Source: Methylococcaceae bacterium UBA662
GTDB taxonomy: Bacteria > Pseudomonadota > Gammaproteobacteria > Methylococcales > Methylomonadaceae
DNA length: 64,000 nt
NCBI GenBank assembly: GCA_002299425.1
Contig: DBNW01000055.1
Coordinates: 10,949-74,948, forward strand
Reading direction: 5' to 3'
Under the pieces are notes generated by a model that worked only from the letters and a program-made list of their open reading frames with translations, did not search any database and was not told where the DNA came from. Made by a program: the position numbers and the translations under genes. Every line of letters begins with the position of its first letter. The stretch's first letter is position 1. Shown piece after piece: positions 37,012 through 41,881 of this stretch.

Positions 37012-37905
37012 TCAGACCCGCAACGAGCCACCGACCCCGCCTTTGACATCTACCCAAACATGCTTAAGCCCTAAGCTACGCAACCATTTAGGGCCTTGCC
37101 GCTCTTTGAGCATGGCGATGGTGGAGGCACTGCCGGCCACCACGCAAAAATCCGCGATGACGCTGACGGCGGCTAATTTGGCTACCGGCCAACCGGTTTT
37201 GGGGTTTAAGACATGCCCGTAGCGGGTATTGCCGACTACTATGCAGCGTTCGTAGTCGCCGCTGCTGGCCATCGCTCCGCTGGTTAAGGCAACGGTTTCC
37301 AAGACAGCGTTGCGGCGCGGGTGGCGTATGCCGACCCGCCAGGGACCGCCGTCAGGATGGGGACCGATAATTTTGATATCGCCGCCTAAATTGACCAAGC
37401 CATGCCCGATGCCGGCCTGCAAACACAGCACAGCAGCCCGGTCTGCGGCGTATTCTTTGACCACGCCGCCTAAGTCGATTTCCATGCCAGGCATTGGAAA
37501 GCGCAGAGTGGGTGCTTCCCAAACTACTTTTTCCCAACCAATTTTATCCAGCAATCCGGCAATTTGCTGCAAATCAGGCAATTTCCCCAACTCAAACCGC
37601 CAAGCCTGCCGCAAAATGCCGGAAGTAATGTCAAACAGGCCGCCACTTTGTCGGTAGCAGGTTTGTGCGTAATCGAGCAGGCTTGCCGTTTCCGGGTCCA
37701 CTTCCATGGCACCGCCCGCCGCCGCACAACGGTTGATTTCAGCAAGGTAGCTGTCTTTTCGGTAACGCGAATAACGGGCTTCCAAACGCTGAATGTCGGC
37801 TAGTGCTAACGCCGCTGCCGCTTGGGCTTGGTCGACACGACGGGCGTACAACTGCACCTCGCACGGCGACCCCATTGCCTTGAATGCAGTGCGGTAAAGC
37901 TTCAT
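37012..37905 (-). CDS. apbE: FAD:protein FMN transferase ApbE
   Basis: FKAMGS, GGLFDIT, IDLGGVVKEYAADRA, NLGGDI, ASSGDYER, HVLNPKTGWP. Start at ATG 37905. Confidence 0.93.
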   Translation of the reverse strand: MKLYRTAFKAMGSPCEVQLYARRVDQAQAAAALALADIQRLEARYSRYRKDSYLAEINRCAAAGGAMEVDPETASLLDYAQTCYRQSGGLFDITSGILRQAWRFELGKLPDLQQIAGLLDKIGWEKVVWEAPTLRFPMPGMEIDLGGVVKEYAADRAAVLCLQAGIGHGLVNLGGDIKIIGPHPDGGPWRVGIRHPRRNAVLETVALTSGAMASSGDYERCIVVGNTRYGHVLNPKTGWPVAKLAAVSVIADFCVVAGSASTIAMLKERQGPKWLRSLGLKHVWVDVKGGVGGSLRV

Positions 37906-37912
37906 TGGCGGC

Positions 37913-40510
37913 TTAAAACATAAGGCCCCAAGTCGCCGACAACGCCCCCACCCGTGCTTGTTGATACCCGTTAACATCATCCATGACCGGCTGCAGCCAT
38001 TCGACACCAAAGCGGTGGCCCTGAAAACTGCCGTTCGGGACGACCGCGCTTAAACCAAAGCCCACGTCCCAATAACGCCCGCCGTAACTGCCCGGAAAAT
38101 CCATTGCGCCGACGCTAGGGTTGGCTCTTGAACCCATATTGACATTGTCGACCAGCCTGCCATCGGCCACGCCCGGAGTCGGGTAGAACTGCCCCTGTAT
38201 TTGCCCCTGGTAGGTAAACGCCCAGCGCAACGAGGCGGTCAACCAAGACAGTACGTTGTAACCGCCCCAAGCACTGGACTGAAAAGCATTGCCTAAGGCA
38301 TAGCCTGATTCGTTGCTGCTTTCCATGCGCACGGTGCCGTTCATTTGCGCTCCCCACGACCACGTCCCATCCACACCGGTGTAGGTCAGGCTGGGCTTAA
38401 AATCCCAGGTGCCGCTGCCCAACTGCATACCGTAGTGGATAAGCCCCTTGTCTATGCGATGGATGCGCCGCAGCGTTTCGTCCACCGACCCGGTCGGGGC
38501 GGTCACGCCCAAACTCAGGTTAGCGTTGTGGTTGGCAGAACTAAATAGCCGAAACAAGGCGTACATCCCCAAATCGCCGACTCCGCCGGTTTCATGAATG
38601 TGCAGGTGGTCTTTCATGGCGTTGTACCTGACACCGTCCAGCATTCGCACATTCATGTCCATGTCCATGAATTGTGGCATGAGCATGAGATTTAACCAGT
38701 CATACGGGGCATACATCAAATCAAGCATGTGCATGCCCATGTTCATTTCAATAGGGTTAACCCGGCACCTGCCGGTGAACCCGGCTGTACAGCCGTTTCG
38801 GACGATGTCTGCATCGCTGGCATAAGCGGTTCCGCGCAACATGTCCCCCGCCTGCCGGCTCCACATGTAGCGGTAGCCCACCATCGTCTGACCGGCCGGA
38901 ATCAGGTGACTAAACATGACCCCAGCCGGTGCCGGTGCGCCGTGATGATGATGGTGGGCATGTGCTTGACCGCCGTCGGCTAACGCCCGACCTAAGGTAG
39001 ATAAATTGACTTTTAAGTTGGCGTTGGCGACAAAAAAATCAAAATCGGCAAAACTGTTCTCGCCCTCCCCGTCTAGGCGCAACGAACCTTGGTGGGTGTA
39101 GTATTCAAACCCGGCTTCCAAGGCCAGACCCTTAGCGATGCGTTTATTGACCACTATACCGCCACTTAAGGCACCGTACGCCGACAGCCGGTGGTCACTG
39201 GAAAAATTATCCGGAAGCTTGTCCCGGTCAAACGGGGTAATGCTAATTTCACCGCTGTCCGGGTCAAAATCAAGCCGGTTGTGCGCCTGTTTGGAAAGCA
39301 GGAACGGTTTGTAAAAATCAGCGGCAGACTGCGAGTAATAGCGAAACCTAGGCGTGACCGTCCAGGTGGTTGCGACCGGCTGAATCCACTCCAACCTAAA
39401 CGTGTGCGCATGGATATCCCAGTCGTCCTGAAAAAACTGGTAATTGGCATGCAGTGCAGCATCTAACAGGCCGATGTGCTGGACATAGCCTGCACCTACC
39501 TGCCATTGGTTTCTGTGGTCAGGGCGTTGCTCCAAAAACGCCCTAACATCGCCCACTAAGCCGTCGGGATTGCTTGGGTTTATGACCAGCGGATCCGGGT
39601 CGGCAAAAATGATGGTCATGGCCTTGTAGGGGTTTTCCAGGTAGCCCTGGCTGTGGGTGTAGCCTAAGCTTGCCGTAGCCAATGCGCTTTTAGTGATAAT
39701 TTGAGTCAGACCCAGGTTCCAAGAGGCATCGCTCCTGCCACCACGGATGGTTTCCTTGCTCAAGGTTCTGCTGATTTGGTGCTGGAAAGCCACCTTGTCG
39801 ATATAGGTAGCGGCATCGTGGTCAAAGTTGGCTTGAATGTCGCTGCCCGTGTAGCTAAAACCCATGTTCAGGCTGGTCAGTTTTTGGTTGAAATCCAAGC
39901 GCCCGTTAAGACTGCTGAACCAACTGAAATAATCGTCTTCGACTGAACCCCCAAACCCCCAATTGACTGCCGACTCGTCCCATTCATAACCCAAATTGAT
40001 GTCGCCTTGACGGCGAATTTCTGGCGATGCCATGGACATAACATGCACTGCGGCCGGGTCTACGCCCGCTGCTCTCCCGGTACTTGGGTCTTGAGACAAT
40101 AAATTGAAATCTCGGTCCAAGAACACCCGGCTACTGATAAAAGGCGAGGCTCCGGCGATGACGGTCTCACCGTCTCGGCTGGCTACGATGGGGCGGTTGC
40201 TGTTGGCTACCACCGGTGCCGTAGTGATGGGCGTAGCCCCTGACCAAGTGTCTTGGGTGTAGTTAAAAATGAATTTAATTCGGTCCGTCAAACTCACTCG
40301 ACCAAACCCGTAGAGGCTCTCTACTTCGATGGGCTTAAGATTGCTTTCTACGCCCGCCAAATTACGTCGGCCTTCTTGGTAATGCGAAAACTGGAAAGCC
40401 ACTTCGTCTTCTTCGGCTGCGGCATTCCCGGCTGACATCAAACCCGGCAAAGCCAAAGCCGCCAACGTCAGTGCTTTAAGTGCCGATTTTTGGCTATCAG
40501 TAGCAGCCAC
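37913..40510 (-). CDS. Outer-membrane fusion protein: DUF3570-like barrel with flavinylation motif plus His/Met-rich porin-like barrel
   Basis: GTG 40510 start, signal peptide LTLAALALPGL...AAA, DTWSGAT, GYLENPYK, ERPD.R, RYYSQSAADFY, SSDHRLS; then HAHHHHH, PAGVM..H, MVGYRYM, QLGSGTWD; C-terminal F. Confidence 0.8.
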   Translation of the reverse strand: MAATDSQKSALKALTLAALALPGLMSAGNAAAEEDEVAFQFSHYQEGRRNLAGVESNLKPIEVESLYGFGRVSLTDRIKFIFNYTQDTWSGATPITTAPVVANSNRPIVASRDGETVIAGASPFISSRVFLDRDFNLLSQDPSTGRAAGVDPAAVHVMSMASPEIRRQGDINLGYEWDESAVNWGFGGSVEDDYFSWFSSLNGRLDFNQKLTSLNMGFSYTGSDIQANFDHDAATYIDKVAFQHQISRTLSKETIRGGRSDASWNLGLTQIITKSALATASLGYTHSQGYLENPYKAMTIIFADPDPLVINPSNPDGLVGDVRAFLEQRPDHRNQWQVGAGYVQHIGLLDAALHANYQFFQDDWDIHAHTFRLEWIQPVATTWTVTPRFRYYSQSAADFYKPFLLSKQAHNRLDFDPDSGEISITPFDRDKLPDNFSSDHRLSAYGALSGGIVVNKRIAKGLALEAGFEYYTHQGSLRLDGEGENSFADFDFFVANANLKVNLSTLGRALADGGQAHAHHHHHGAPAPAGVMFSHLIPAGQTMVGYRYMWSRQAGDMLRGTAYASDADIVRNGCTAGFTGRCRVNPIEMNMGMHMLDLMYAPYDWLNLMLMPQFMDMDMNVRMLDGVRYNAMKDHLHIHETGGVGDLGMYALFRLFSSANHNANLSLGVTAPTGSVDETLRRIHRIDKGLIHYGMQLGSGTWDFKPSLTYTGVDGTWSWGAQMNGTVRMESSNESGYALGNAFQSSAWGGYNVLSWLTASLRWAFTYQGQIQGQFYPTPGVADGRLVDNVNMGSRANPSVGAMDFPGSYGGRYWDVGFGLSAVVPNGSFQGHRFGVEWLQPVMDDVNGYQQARVGALSATWGLMF

Positions 40511-40718
40511 AGCCCCCCCCCATCCCGGCCATACCCGCAGGGGCGGCTTCACGGCTGCTGTAGTTGTGGTTCCGCATCACGGCATCGATTGGATTAGGGT
40601 TTAATGCCATATGCGGCTTGGCCAAGACTCCCCGCTGCCAAGGGGCTACCGGCGTACAAGCCGCAGCCGCCAAAACCAGCCCGCTTAAAACCCCGTATTT
40701 TACAATCTGCATCGCCAT
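40497..40718 (-). CDS. DUF4266-family lipoprotein
   Basis: Lipobox AAAC, VAPWQRG.LA...M, terminal GGGCGCY; overlaps the start of the barrel gene. Confidence 0.88.
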   Translation of the reverse strand: MAMQIVKYGVLSGLVLAAAACTPVAPWQRGVLAKPHMALNPNPIDAVMRNHNYSSREAAPAGMAGMGGGCGCY

Positions 40719-40750
40719 TACCCTCTTAACTTTACCCGTATTGCCCAAGT

Positions 40751-41251
40751 TTAAGGTTCGGTTAACAACTGCACCAGCACACGATCCAGTTGTTCGATTG
40801 CATCCGATTTAAAGCCCAGATGGATGTGTCGGACGGCTCCGTGGCGGTCAATCAGGTAGGACGAGGGCATGGCCTTAACCGCGAAAGCTTCGGCGCACTG
40901 CTGGTTCTTGTCGGCTACCACGGTGAATTGCGGTGGGAATTGGACCAGGAACGCTTTAGCATCAGCCACTGTTTCATCTACATTGACACCAATAATTTTC
41001 AGGCCTTTCGCTTGATATTTTGCGTGCAACGTATTTAAGAAAGGAAACGACTTAGCGCACGGGGCACACCAGGATGCCCAAAAATCCACATACAAAACCT
41101 GCCCCTGAAACTGCCGCAGCGGCACAGGCTGGCCACCTGACAGGGGCGTTAAGTAACAGTCAGGGAATGGCTCGCCCTGCTCCAGCCCATAAGCCGCCGA
41201 CACGCTCGACAAGCAACCCCAAAAAAGCAGTTTAACGATGTTGCTATTCAT
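40751..41251 (-). CDS. TlpA/ResA-like exported thioredoxin
   Basis: Signal-like N-terminus, VDFWASWCAPC, MPSSYLIDR..VR..H.GF. Confidence 0.92.
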   Translation of the reverse strand: MNSNIVKLLFWGCLSSVSAAYGLEQGEPFPDCYLTPLSGGQPVPLRQFQGQVLYVDFWASWCAPCAKSFPFLNTLHAKYQAKGLKIIGVNVDETVADAKAFLVQFPPQFTVVADKNQQCAEAFAVKAMPSSYLIDRHGAVRHIHLGFKSDAIEQLDRVLVQLLTEP

Positions 41252-41437: not shown

Positions 41438-41881
41438 CTACCTGTCTTGCACGACTAAGGTGCGTACACCCGTATGCCTACCGCTTCTGCCGGTGCAATG
41501 GTACTCTAAATCGTAGTCGTCTGCGGCGCCCCTGCTTTTGTTGACCAACACCAAGTACACGCCATCACCCCCCCTAATTTCAATGGTTGGGCTGTACCGG
41601 GTATCGCCCTCAGGACCGTTGTCGGTTGCATTGTAGGCCAACCGTCCTTTGACCGTCTGTACGCTCAATATGGAACCCGAACTGACGTTGCGCCCATCTC
41701 TAACCCGCATTGACATGTGATCGGTTGCCCCGTTGCCGTTGTCGAAACACTCGATCCGGTAATGATCGACATTTGTCGAACCTTGACCTAGCACACCTGA
41801 AAGCTCATCGGCAGCTACTGTACCGGCTACTGCATACAGTGCTGCGGTTAGCAATGCGTGTATTTTGGTTTGTTTTAGCAT
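41438..41881 (-). CDS. Secreted hypothetical protein with two Cys and four mature-domain His
   Basis: GAGGA RBS; signal peptide ending VAA; YRIECFD, YHCTG, RHTG. Confidence 0.82.
   Translation of the reverse strand: MLKQTKIHALLTAALYAVAGTVAADELSGVLGQGSTNVDHYRIECFDNGNGATDHMSMRVRDGRNVSSGSILSVQTVKGRLAYNATDNGPEGDTRYSPTIEIRGGDGVYLVLVNKSRGAADDYDLEYHCTGRSGRHTGVRTLVVQDR

What the first reader, a model, noticed from the sequence alone, without database searches (positions are those of the whole stretch)
37913..40510. Two outer-membrane beta-barrels fused in one polypeptide
Seen: the DUF3570-like part ends in a terminal-type strand (FVANANLKVNL, about 39002). A short linker STLGRALADGGQA and a His tag lead to a second porin-like domain ending TWGLMF. 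The linker has no remnant signal peptide, arguing for a genuine fusion rather than a lost stop codon. Known: tandem-barrel OMPs are uncommon, and the HxH-PxGVM-YRYM-QLGSGT domain normally occurs as a separate protein. Inference: a flavinylated redox barrel physically tethered to a metal channel.
Basis: partly seen in the sequence, partly recalled or inferred. Interest (0 to 1): 0.78.

Follow-up and report, generated by a model that had tools for sequence, protein, structure and literature searches.

The report
Flavin barrel fused to methionine-lined channel
This methane-oxidiser gene really does join two different outer-membrane barrels in one protein: a barrel of a family shown to carry covalently attached flavin, and a methionine-lined channel; the fusion is old and conserved in methane and ammonia oxidisers and is a testable candidate for redox-assisted copper uptake.

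Summary
ORF 37913..40552 (-) encodes 879 aa (865 aa from GTG 40510). It has a signal peptide and a DUF3570 domain (PF12094, E 1.8e-110). A short linker with a native His tract follows, then a ~340-aa domain ending in Phe. AlphaFold2 gives two separate beta domains (pLDDT 83). The N part alone folds the same way and matches only outer-membrane barrels. The C part superposes on the 12-stranded COG4313 channel Pput2725 (4RL8, TM 0.68).

The C part belongs to a divergent, Met-rich (7%) subfamily of COG4313/PF13557, which is usually a stand-alone protein. The fusion is not an artefact. More than 1,200 protein clusters carry it, an independent assembly agrees, and all fused channels form one clade spanning three phyla.

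The operon TlpA-like redoxin, DUF4266, fusion, ApbE is the published DUF3570 flavinylation system. Both flavinylation motifs are conserved.

Multi-barrel outer-membrane proteins are a described class, but I found no report of this architecture.

The function is inferred: a thiol/flavin relay coupled to passage of a soft metal, most likely Cu(I), through the Met-lined channel. Copper has not been shown. One open problem is that the cognate ApbE lacks any export signal.

The parts
37913..40552 (-). Fusion gene: 879 aa from GTG 40552, or 865 aa from GTG 40510 as called in public data; stop codon at 37913-37915
   Evidence: (P0002, 100% identical, 865 aa)
40415..40510 (-). Signal peptide (residues 15-46, ...ALPGLMSAGNAAA before EEDE)
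   Evidence: Read from the sequence; low pLDDT for 1-47; LPGL is conserved in homologues
39005..40414 (-). Barrel 1: DUF3570 domain (residues 47-516), roughly 16-20 long strands by DSSP
   Evidence: PF12094 E 1.8e-110. AF2 of the N part alone gives pLDDT 87, pTM 0.83. The listed PDB fold matches are essentially all outer-membrane barrels, best TM 0.39
40232..40252 (-). Flavinylation motif 1, DTWSGAT (residues 101-107; predicted FMN acceptor T107)
   Evidence: Q100, D101, W103, G105, A106 and T107 are invariant in 74 homologues. Motif defined in PMC8238504
40142..40156 (-). Flavinylation motif 2, AGASP (residues 133-137; predicted acceptor S136). The first position is A/V/T rather than S/T
   Evidence: G134 and A135 at >=90%, P137 invariant
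38930..39004 (-). Inter-barrel linker with a native His-rich tract (residues 517-541, LSTLGRALADGGQAHAHHHHHGAPA). Inferred to be periplasmic
   Evidence: Conserved layout but variable sequence in 74 homologues. pLDDT below 50 for 524-537. Mixed His codons
38888..38929 (-). Segment before the first strand of barrel 2 (residues 542-555, PAGVMFSHLIPAGQ). Counterpart of the lumen-plugging N-terminus of COG4313 channels. Carries the family-wide M546 and H549
   Evidence: plug described in PMC4493636
37916..38887 (-). Barrel 2: 12-stranded channel of the COG4313/PF13557 type (residues 556-879), ending in ...TWGLMF
   Evidence: Foldseek 4RL8 TM 0.68 and FapF 0.67. Subfamily profile hits 4RL8 at E 7e-4. 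29 of 54 relatives match PF13557
38654..38746 (-). Methionine ladder on two adjacent strands (residues 603-633, MNMGMHMLDLMYAPYDWLNLMLMPQFMDMDM)
   Evidence: M603, 605, 607, 609, 613, 623, 625 and 633 conserved at 0.89-1.0 in both fused and stand-alone forms. Met is 7.1% here versus 0.9% in barrel 1
38765..38791 (-). Cys pair C588-X7-C596, invariant in fusions and present in 37% of stand-alone relatives
37012..37905 (-). ApbE flavin transferase (probable start ATG 37905, MKLYRTAFKAMGSP...), with no signal peptide or lipobox
   Evidence: PF02424 E 2.7e-73. The N-terminus is just as short in about 50 related loci
40497..40748 (-). DUF4266 small lipoprotein ending in ...GGGCGCY (CXC motif)
   Evidence: PF14086 E 2e-18; role in the system described in PMC8238504
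40751..41251 (-). TlpA-like periplasmic thioredoxin/redoxin (WCAPC motif)
   Evidence: PF08534 E 2.4e-25; found beside the fusion in most of 79 loci
41438..41881 (-). 147-aa secreted two-Cys protein with no known family. Conserved neighbour of the operon
   Evidence: Its family is present in 60 of 79 related loci. No Pfam or NCBIfam match

Best explanation
The gene encodes one exported polypeptide that folds into two separate outer-membrane beta-barrels.

Barrel 1 is a DUF3570 domain, a family shown elsewhere to receive covalent FMN from ApbE at two [S/T]GA[S/T] motifs. Barrel 2 is a 12-stranded channel of a divergent, methionine-rich subfamily of COG4313/PF13557. A conserved set of about 11 Met and 2 His sits on the pre-barrel plug segment and on two neighbouring strands, and I infer that these residues line the lumen. 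The two barrels are joined by a short His-rich linker, which I infer to lie in the periplasm.

The gene sits in the operon TlpA-like redoxin, DUF4266 CXC lipoprotein, fusion, ApbE. The fusion arose essentially once and has been kept across methane oxidisers, Nitrosomonas and a few other lineages.

Shown here: the anatomy, the family assignments, the conservation and the single origin.

Inferred mechanism: electrons pass from a thiol relay (DsbD from the second locus, then TlpA, then DUF4266) to the flavins of barrel 1. There they reduce a soft metal at or in the outer membrane, most likely Cu(II) to Cu(I). The reduced ion passes through the Met-lined barrel 2 and is received by the His-rich linker and periplasmic partners. 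This would be a bacterial outer-membrane counterpart of the yeast Fre1 reductase plus Ctr1 Met-rich channel.

My confidence is about 0.9 for the two-barrel fusion, about 0.5 for redox-coupled transport in general, and about 0.35 for copper specifically.
For: Anatomy:
- PF12094 covers residues 26-507.
- The full-length AF2 model has pLDDT 83 and pTM 0.73, with low confidence only in the signal peptide and at 524-537.
- The N part alone folds with the same strand pattern (pLDDT 87, pTM 0.83), and its listed PDB fold matches are essentially all outer-membrane barrels.
- The C part aligns with the whole 4RL8 chain at TM 0.68.

Family of barrel 2:
- 29 of 54 relatives match PF13557.
- The subfamily profile finds 4RL8 (E 7e-4) and FapF in the PDB.

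Both parents exist as complete independent outer-membrane proteins:
- An unfused DUF3570 ending in ...YLKF lies in the same genome.
- Stand-alone channels carry their own signal peptide.

Conservation of the fusion:
- 1,240 fusion-length clusters carry it.
- About 72 of 79 genome loci are fused, with a conserved gene order.
- All 39 sampled fused channels form one clade (SH-aLRT 98) that includes Spirochaetota and Myxococcota. Three of the five 'alone' rows inside that clade are truncated fusions.

Redox module:
- DUF3570 flavinylation and the ApbE/thioredoxin-like/DUF4266 (with or without DsbD) cluster are published (PMC8238504).
- Both motifs are conserved here.
- A DsbD-linked paralogous system exists on contig C74.

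Metal reading:
- Met is 7.1% in barrel 2, 0.9% in barrel 1 and about 2% in the window background.
- The Met/His core is conserved in both fused and stand-alone forms.
- On strand 620-637 the Met/Gln positions alternate with Leu/Leu/Leu/Phe. This fits a Met face towards the lumen and an aliphatic face towards lipid (read from the sequence; inference).
- The genome encodes PmoA.
- The fusion is found in 5 of 14 copper-monooxygenase genomes versus 3 of 386 others (Fisher p 1.3e-6).
- Unfused channels are sometimes adjacent to a TlpA-like redoxin plus a small cytochrome c. A periplasmic redox partner therefore recurs independently of the fusion.
Against: - No experiment or expression data links this protein to copper or to any other substrate.
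- The characterised COG4313 members (TcpY, SphA, Pput2725) point to hydrophobic or amphipathic substrates, and a Met-lined lumen is also hydrophobic (PMC4493636).
- The window's own C-domain does not reach the PF13557 model, even at E<=10.
- The enrichment in copper-monooxygenase organisms rests on only two families in the sample. Most family members lie in genomes without such an enzyme (47 of 56). The fusion also occurs in Methylotenera, Spirochaetota and Myxococcota.
- The cognate ApbE has no signal peptide or lipobox in about 50 loci. It is therefore unclear where and how an outer-membrane protein would be flavinylated.
- No model coordinates were available. Barrel closure, the exact strand count of barrel 1, the side on which the flavin sites lie, and the lumen orientation of the Met residues were therefore not verified directly.
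- There is no DsbD in this operon.
Confidence: 0.55

Rival explanations
1. It is the same two-barrel fusion, but barrel 2 does what other COG4313 channels are thought to do: it takes up or releases a hydrophobic or amphipathic small molecule. Candidates would be a redox-active lipid-soluble compound, a quinone-like or sulfur compound, or a flavin. Barrel 1 would then reduce or oxidise that molecule.
For: By fold and by profile, barrel 2 belongs to COG4313/PF13557. That family is implicated in hydrophobic substrates and has bound detergent in its lumen (PMC4493636). Methionine is hydrophobic. Most family members are in genomes without a copper monooxygenase.
Against: A ladder of about 11 invariant Met plus His is unusual for a purely hydrophobic conduit. 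Together with a His tract and a Cys pair it resembles known Cu(I)/Ag(I) sites; this rests on my knowledge of CusABCF, Ctr1, PcoB/CopB and OprC and was not tested here. No catabolic genes for an organic substrate lie in the 79 loci.
Confidence: 0.17
2. It is a two-barrel fusion working in metal or oxidant defence rather than uptake. Either the Met-rich barrel exports or buffers Cu(I)/Ag(I), or its methionines act as a sacrificial oxidant sink that the TlpA/DUF4266/flavin relay keeps reduced.
For: The Met/His-rich composition. TlpA-type thioredoxins and DsbD are the usual electron donors for periplasmic repair systems (my knowledge). Stand-alone channels often sit next to a RegB/RegA-like sensor pair.
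Against: No methionine sulfoxide reductase, multicopper oxidase, CopA/CusCBA or other resistance gene is among the conserved neighbours. The Met positions are fixed in a ladder rather than scattered, which argues for a path rather than a sink.
Confidence: 0.1
3. The two barrels have unrelated jobs. They are fused only so that they are made and inserted together in equal amounts, with no electron or substrate hand-over between them.
For: Multi-barrel proteins arise often by lineage-specific fusion (PMC8346858). When unfused, the two families are not adjacent in the sampled genomes.
Against: The evidence points to essentially a single origin, with retention across three phyla and >1,200 clusters. 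Fusion-specific invariant residues appear in barrel 2: C588/C596, H649, H675, H698 and the His tract. The channel's only fusion partner is DUF3570, even in the giant forms. The two families co-occur in genomes more often than expected: 26 of 56 versus 63 of 345, counted.
Confidence: 0.1
4. It is not a real two-barrel protein. Either it is an assembly or annotation artefact (a lost stop or a frameshift joining two genes), or the chain forms one large merged barrel.
For: The window comes from a metagenome-assembled genome of 87 contigs. Engineered tandem barrels can merge into one larger barrel (Arnold et al., cited in PMC8346858). I could not inspect model coordinates.
Against: The same uninterrupted ORF is present in cultured strains and in hundreds of genomes. 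An independent assembly is identical. The N part folds identically with and without the C part. The C part matches a complete 12-stranded barrel. The linker is disordered and comparable in length to published multi-barrel linkers.
Confidence: 0.03

Closest known systems
DUF3570 (PF12094) flavinylated proteins of the ApbE / thioredoxin-like / DUF4266 (with or without DsbD) clusters (Meheust et al. 2021, eLife, PMC8238504)
   Same: Strong PF12094 match, two conserved [S/T]GA[S/T]-type motifs, and adjacent ApbE, TlpA-like redoxin and DUF4266 CXC lipoprotein. The same genome also has the canonical DsbD-linked unfused version.
   Different: A second, 12-stranded barrel is fused to the C-terminus. 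The former C-terminal Phe is replaced by Leu followed by a linker. The cognate ApbE has no export signal. Extra conserved neighbours are present: about 150-aa and about 265-aa secreted proteins, a HEAT-repeat protein and a spermidine-synthase-like membrane protein. The paper does not mention the fusion, and the function of the family is unknown.
COG4313 / PF13557 (Phenol_MetA_deg) outer-membrane channels: Pput2725 (PDB 4RL8), TcpY, SphA (van den Berg et al. 2015, PMC4493636)
   Same: A 12-stranded barrel preceded by a short segment where Pput2725 has its lumen plug. Shared GxGD and PTG motifs appear in the profile alignment. TM-score 0.68.
   Different: It is a divergent subfamily: the window's domain does not reach the Pfam model. 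It is about 7% Met, with a conserved Met/His ladder that is not described for the characterised members. Here it is fused behind another barrel, so it has no signal peptide of its own. A metal substrate is proposed instead of hydrophobic organics.
Multi-barrel outer-membrane proteins (Solan, Pereira, Lupas, Kolodny, Ben-Tal 2021, PNAS, PMC8346858), e.g. PagP-LptD, PLA1-PLA1, YjbH-GfcD, FhaC-Porin
   Same: Two full-length, non-overlapping barrel domains in one chain, joined by a linker of a few tens of residues. It is a fusion of two different families that also exist on their own.
   Different: This pair of families is not named in that paper's main text; its supplement and web database could not be checked. 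No 8-stranded barrel is involved, whereas 27 of their 34 architectures include one. The fused clade spans at least three phyla, whereas nearly all their families are confined to one.
Functional analogies only: the MtrCAB porin-cytochrome conduit; the copper importer OprC and PcoB/CopB; yeast Fre1 reductase plus the Ctr1 Met-rich Cu(I) channel
   Same: The ideas are shared: a redox cofactor carried through or at an outer-membrane barrel, and Met/His-lined paths for Cu(I). This is my own knowledge. OprC and MtrB appear only as weak generic barrel matches.
   Different: There is no haem, no TonB box or plug domain, and no sequence or specific fold relationship. Membership was not tested and is not claimed.

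Membership tests
DUF3570 (PF12094) ApbE-substrate family | Match to the Pfam model above its gathering score | tested here: met
   370 bits against a cut-off of 25; residues 26-507 cover profile positions 2-426 of 427
DUF3570 (PF12094) ApbE-substrate family | Two conserved [S/T]GA[S/T] flavinylation motifs | tested here: met
   The first motif, SGAT (104-107), is canonical and invariant. In the second, AGAS (133-136), GA[ST]P is conserved but the first position is A/V/T/G
DUF3570 (PF12094) ApbE-substrate family | Gene cluster with ApbE, a thioredoxin-like protein and DUF4266 | tested here: met
   All three are adjacent on the same strand, and the order is conserved in most of 79 loci
DUF3570 (PF12094) ApbE-substrate family | Covalent FMN actually attached by the cognate ApbE | not testable with these tools
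   Shown only for the Chlorobium luteolum protein (PMC8238504). Here the ApbE lacks an export signal
COG4313 / PF13557 outer-membrane channels | Match to the Pfam model PF13557 | tested here: not met
   The window's C-domain has no hit even at E<=10. However, 29 of 54 relatives at 32-54% identity match it (best E 2.4e-13). I therefore file it as a divergent subfamily, not a canonical member
COG4313 / PF13557 outer-membrane channels | 12-stranded barrel fold like Pput2725 | tested here: met
   Foldseek gives 4RL8 as the top hit, TM 0.68 over the whole target. DSSP counts about 12 strands in 556-878. The profile hits 4RL8 at E 7e-4
COG4313 / PF13557 outer-membrane channels | N-terminal segment that plugs the lumen from the periplasmic side | tested here: inconclusive
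   A conserved 14-residue segment, PAGVMFSHLIPAGQ, precedes strand 1. Its position inside the barrel could not be checked without coordinates
Multi-barrel outer-membrane proteins (Solan et al. 2021) | Two or more non-overlapping full-length barrel domains in one chain, separated by a linker | tested here: met
   Barrel 1 spans 47-516 and barrel 2 spans 556-879, with a linker plus plug of about 40 residues. Each domain was modelled or matched on its own
Copper outer-membrane channels (CopB/PcoB PF05275; OprC-type TonB receptors) | Sequence membership | tested here: not met
   No CopB/PcoB or TonB-receptor family hit in Pfam or NCBIfam for the C-domain. OprC appears only as a generic large-barrel match with rmsd above 21 A

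The most novel reading that the evidence does not exclude
The protein would be a self-contained reductive metal-uptake machine in the outer membrane. Covalent flavins in barrel 1, fed by a DsbD/TlpA/DUF4266 thiol relay, would reduce extracellular Cu(II). The tethered Met-lined barrel 2 would conduct the resulting Cu(I) inward to a His-rich periplasmic landing site. This would be a haem-free and TonB-independent route by which gammaproteobacterial methanotrophs and Nitrosomonas obtain copper for pMMO/AMO, and the first bacterial reductase-channel fusion of its kind.
Probability: 0.3. Interest if true: 0.85.

Novelty: new variant of a known kind. Interest (0 to 1): 0.62.

Why it matters
It is not settled how copper crosses the outer membrane in methanotrophs that make no methanobactin, or in ammonia oxidisers (my knowledge of the field). 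Both groups depend on copper enzymes that control methane and nitrogen fluxes.

This gene offers a concrete, conserved candidate that can be deleted, and it is present in cultured strains: Methylovulum psychrotolerans, Methylomonas koyamae, Methyloglobulus morosus, Crenothrix polyspora, Nitrosomonas ureae Nm13 and N. oligotropha Nm45.

Whatever the substrate, the fusion acts as a 'Rosetta stone'. It links the function-less DUF3570 flavin system to a transport step. It assigns a large unannotated Met-rich branch of COG4313 channels, found in about 14% of the sampled genomes of the class, to a redox-related role. It also adds a heterologous double barrel, spread across phyla, to the short list of natural multi-barrel outer-membrane proteins, none of which had a solved structure in 2021.

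Tried and rejected
- Searching the PDB by sequence with the whole protein matched only His tags.
- Pfam and NCBIfam searches with the C-domain alone gave nothing usable. The family was reached only through relatives, a profile and the fold.
- I first counted short Methylococcales homologues as stand-alone genes. Several begin with the tail of DUF3570 and are truncated gene calls, so I rejected them as evidence.
- I expected the giant 1,113-2,800-aa proteins to be tandem repeats of the fusion. They hold one DUF3570 and one channel plus long unannotated extensions.
- I looked for a split-gene intermediate, with DUF3570 and the channel as adjacent separate genes, in the class sample. None was seen.
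- I looked for copper genes among the conserved neighbours. Only uncharacterised secreted proteins, a HEAT-repeat protein and a spermidine-synthase-like membrane protein recur.
- Literature searches for this architecture, or for a COG4313-copper link, found nothing. The supplement of the multi-barrel paper is not held.
- Model coordinates are not exposed. I therefore could not measure strand counts, barrel closure, the orientation of the Met side chains or the distance from the flavin sites to the channel.
- A lost stop codon or misassembly was considered and rejected.
- An engineered His tag was considered and rejected.
Full report
**What is there.** On the minus strand, ORF 37913..40552 encodes 879 aa from a GTG. 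Public gene callers start it at the GTG at 40510, giving 865 aa (P0002). Pfam places DUF3570 (PF12094) on residues 26-507 with E 1.8e-110 and finds nothing on the last ~370 residues. The neighbours on the same strand are:
- a TlpA-like redoxin (40751..41251);
- a DUF4266 lipoprotein ending in CGC (40497..40748);
- an ApbE flavin transferase (probable start 37905), directly downstream.

**Is the fusion real?** Yes.
- A search restricted to the C-terminal 362 residues, but admitting only fusion-length proteins, returned 1,240 clusters. All 120 listed carry PF12094. Named sources include Methylovulum, Methylobacter, Methylomonas and Methyloglobulus.
- In 74 aligned full-length homologues the junction always has the same layout: a short Gly/Ser/Ala-rich linker, a His-rich stretch of variable sequence, then the invariant PAGVMF. 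The 'His tag' is therefore native, and its codons are mixed CAT/CAC.
- Of 79 loci fetched from named genomes, about 72 hold the uninterrupted fusion. These include the cultured strains Nitrosomonas ureae Nm13, N. oligotropha Nm45 and Crenothrix polyspora, and also Methylotenera, Spirochaetota and Myxococcota.
- An independent assembly of a public run is identical over 37800-40700, though it is probably from the same sample.

**Two barrels or one?**
- AlphaFold2 on the 74-sequence alignment gave mean pLDDT 83 and pTM 0.73. Low confidence is confined to the signal peptide (1-47) and the linker/His tract (524-537). There is an all-beta N part, a helix at 517-526, and a C part of about 12 strands.
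- The best PDB fold match is the COG4313 channel Pput2725 (4RL8). Its whole chain aligns with the C part at TM 0.68. FapF, another 12-stranded barrel, follows.
- The N part modelled alone keeps exactly the same strand pattern at higher confidence (pLDDT 87, pTM 0.83).
- The listed PDB fold matches of the N part are essentially all outer-membrane barrels (BcsC, FadL, AlgE, OmpG, PgaA, PelB), and none is close (TM <= 0.39). DUF3570 is therefore an outer-membrane barrel of its own type.
- Each half also exists in nature as a complete outer-membrane protein. The same genome has an unfused 416-aa DUF3570 ending in ...SVYLKF. Stand-alone channels have their own signal peptide, followed directly by HAPAGVM....

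I could not obtain model coordinates. Barrel closure and the exact strand number of barrel 1 (about 16-20 long strands by DSSP) are therefore inferred.

**What is barrel 2?** The window's domain itself misses every curated model. However, 29 of 54 relatives at 32-54% identity match PF13557 (Phenol_MetA_deg), and a profile of the subfamily finds 4RL8 (E 7e-4) and FapF by sequence. It is thus a divergent branch of COG4313. Published work describes that family as 12-stranded barrels whose first ~14 residues plug the lumen from the periplasmic side, and it implicates them in uptake of hydrophobic molecules (PMC4493636). Here the conserved PAGVMFSHLIPAGQ segment occupies the plug position.

The branch is distinctive in three ways:
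- Met is 7.1% of barrel 2, 0.9% of barrel 1 and about 2% of the window background. Stand-alone relatives have a median of 6.9%.
- A core is conserved in both fused and stand-alone forms: M546, H549, M557, M603, M605, M607, H608, M609, M613, M623, M625, M633 and M709.
- The His tract, the C588-X7-C596 pair, and H649, H675 and H698 are specific to fusions.

On strand 620-637 the Met/Gln positions alternate with Leu, Leu, Leu, Phe. This is what one expects if the Met face lines the lumen; it is an inference from the sequence.

**Distribution and history.** An exhaustive search found 1,759 representative clusters of the channel, both fused and stand-alone. In an even sample of 400 genomes of the class:
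- 56 carry the channel, and about 8 of these are fusions;
- 89 carry DUF3570, and 7 of about 117 genes are fused;
- 14 carry a copper membrane monooxygenase.

The fusion is in 5 of those 14 genomes and in 3 of the 386 others (Fisher p 1.3e-6). Those five genomes belong to only two families, so the association is confounded by phylogeny. When the two genes are unfused they are not adjacent.

A tree of 93 channel domains puts all 39 fused ones, from three phyla, in one clade (SH-aLRT 98) next to a purely stand-alone clade. Of the five 'alone' rows inside the fused clade, three are truncated calls of fusions. Two are genuine stand-alone proteins with a signal peptide and a His-rich mature N-terminus. 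The fusion therefore arose essentially once and then spread. The giant 1,113-2,800-aa relatives are the same fusion with long extra regions. Some genomes hold two to four tandem fused paralogues.

**The system around it.** DUF3570 is a published ApbE substrate. The Chlorobium luteolum protein is flavinylated at two [S/T]GA[S/T] motifs, and the family sits in clusters with ApbE, a thioredoxin-like protein and DUF4266, with or without DsbD. Its function is unknown (PMC8238504). Here motif 1 (QDTWSGATP) is invariant and motif 2 (xGA[ST]P) is conserved.

The genome, a 2.4-Mb assembly that encodes PmoA, also has the canonical paralogous set, redoxin, DUF4266, unfused DUF3570, DsbD, on contig C74.

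Beyond the published core, the 79 loci share further neighbours:
- a ~150-aa secreted protein family (60 loci; the window's 41438..41881 is a member);
- a ~265-aa secreted family with a mature N-terminal His (41 loci);
- a HEAT-repeat protein (28 loci);
- a spermidine-synthase-like membrane protein (29 loci).

None of these has a curated family apart from the HEAT-repeat match. In this genome the last three lie on other contigs or were not found.

Stand-alone channels recur next to a 6-TM kinase plus Fis-HTH regulator pair, and in three loci next to a small cytochrome c plus a TlpA-like redoxin.

One awkward fact: the cognate ApbE starts only 10-15 residues before its conserved F.AMG[ST]P motif in about 50 loci. 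It has no export signal.

**How it most likely works.** The anatomy, families, conservation and single origin are shown. The following is inferred. A thiol relay (DsbD, TlpA-like redoxin, DUF4266) feeds the flavins of barrel 1. These reduce a soft metal at the outer membrane, most likely Cu(II) to Cu(I). The reduced ion passes through the Met-lined barrel 2 to the His-rich linker and periplasmic partners.

The rivals are:
- a hydrophobic redox-active substrate, as for other COG4313 channels;
- a defence or buffering role;
- co-assembly without functional coupling;
- an artefact or a single merged barrel, which is now very unlikely.

**Novelty.** Multi-barrel outer-membrane proteins are a described class: 34 architectures were predicted in 2021, and no chain with more than one barrel had then been solved (PMC8346858). 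DUF3570 flavinylation is known, and COG4313 channels are known. I found no report of this particular pairing, of the Met-rich channel branch, or of a link between either family and copper. Earlier AI notes of this scan on other genomes reached a similar reading. I treated them as leads, not as support.

Noticed in passing
window 37012-37905 (-), and ApbE genes in about 50 related loci (L006-L084): The ApbE that follows the fusion has no signal peptide or lipobox anywhere. It starts 10-15 residues before the conserved F.AMG[ST]P motif. The published C. luteolum DUF3570 system has an exported ApbE. Where the outer-membrane substrate is flavinylated is unexplained.
   Followed up: partly
own genome, contig C74 (L005 3794-8742, minus strand): A second, canonical system: redoxin (168 aa), DUF4266 (75 aa), unfused DUF3570 (416 aa, ending in YLKF), DsbD (637 aa), then a 300-aa secreted protein with a CVDCH haem-type motif. 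There is no ApbE at this locus.
   Followed up: partly
window 41438-41881 (-); own genome contig C52 11221-13341 (-): The 147-aa secreted two-Cys protein belongs to an uncharacterised family found beside the fusion in 60 of 79 loci. Two more paralogues sit on C52, with a 298-aa secreted protein whose mature N-terminus is His (AIA|HTGF...). That second family occurs in 41 of 79 loci. Neither family has a Pfam or NCBIfam model.
   Followed up: partly
related loci, e.g. L006 11125-12678, L034 10991-12586; own genome C11 22120-23670: A ~518-aa membrane protein with a weak spermidine-synthase-like domain follows ApbE in 29 loci. A secreted HEAT-repeat protein of ~294 aa precedes the redoxin in 28 loci.
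   Followed up: no
L009, L014, L050, L056, L067 (Methyloglobulus, Crenothrix and Methylococcaceae genomes): Two to four fused DUF3570::channel paralogues lie in tandem in some genomes.
   Followed up: no
proteins P0251, P0256, P0265, P0246, P0242: Giant versions of 1,113-2,800 aa end in the same DUF3570::channel pair. They carry more than 400-2,000 extra residues with no Pfam match, at the N-terminus or inserted near the flavinylation region.
   Followed up: partly
L086, L089, L093, L098, L099 (RegB/RegA-like pair); L098, L100, L101 (cytochrome c plus redoxin): Stand-alone Met-rich channels recur next to a 6-TM histidine kinase plus a response regulator with a Fis-type HTH. In three loci they sit next to a 102-aa CxxCH lipoprotein and a TlpA-like redoxin.
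   Followed up: partly
proteins P0258, P0238: Two genuine stand-alone channels inside the fused clade have a signal peptide followed by a His-rich mature N-terminus. They are either secondary fissions or the pre-fusion form. Either way, the His tract belongs to the channel rather than to the linker.
   Followed up: no
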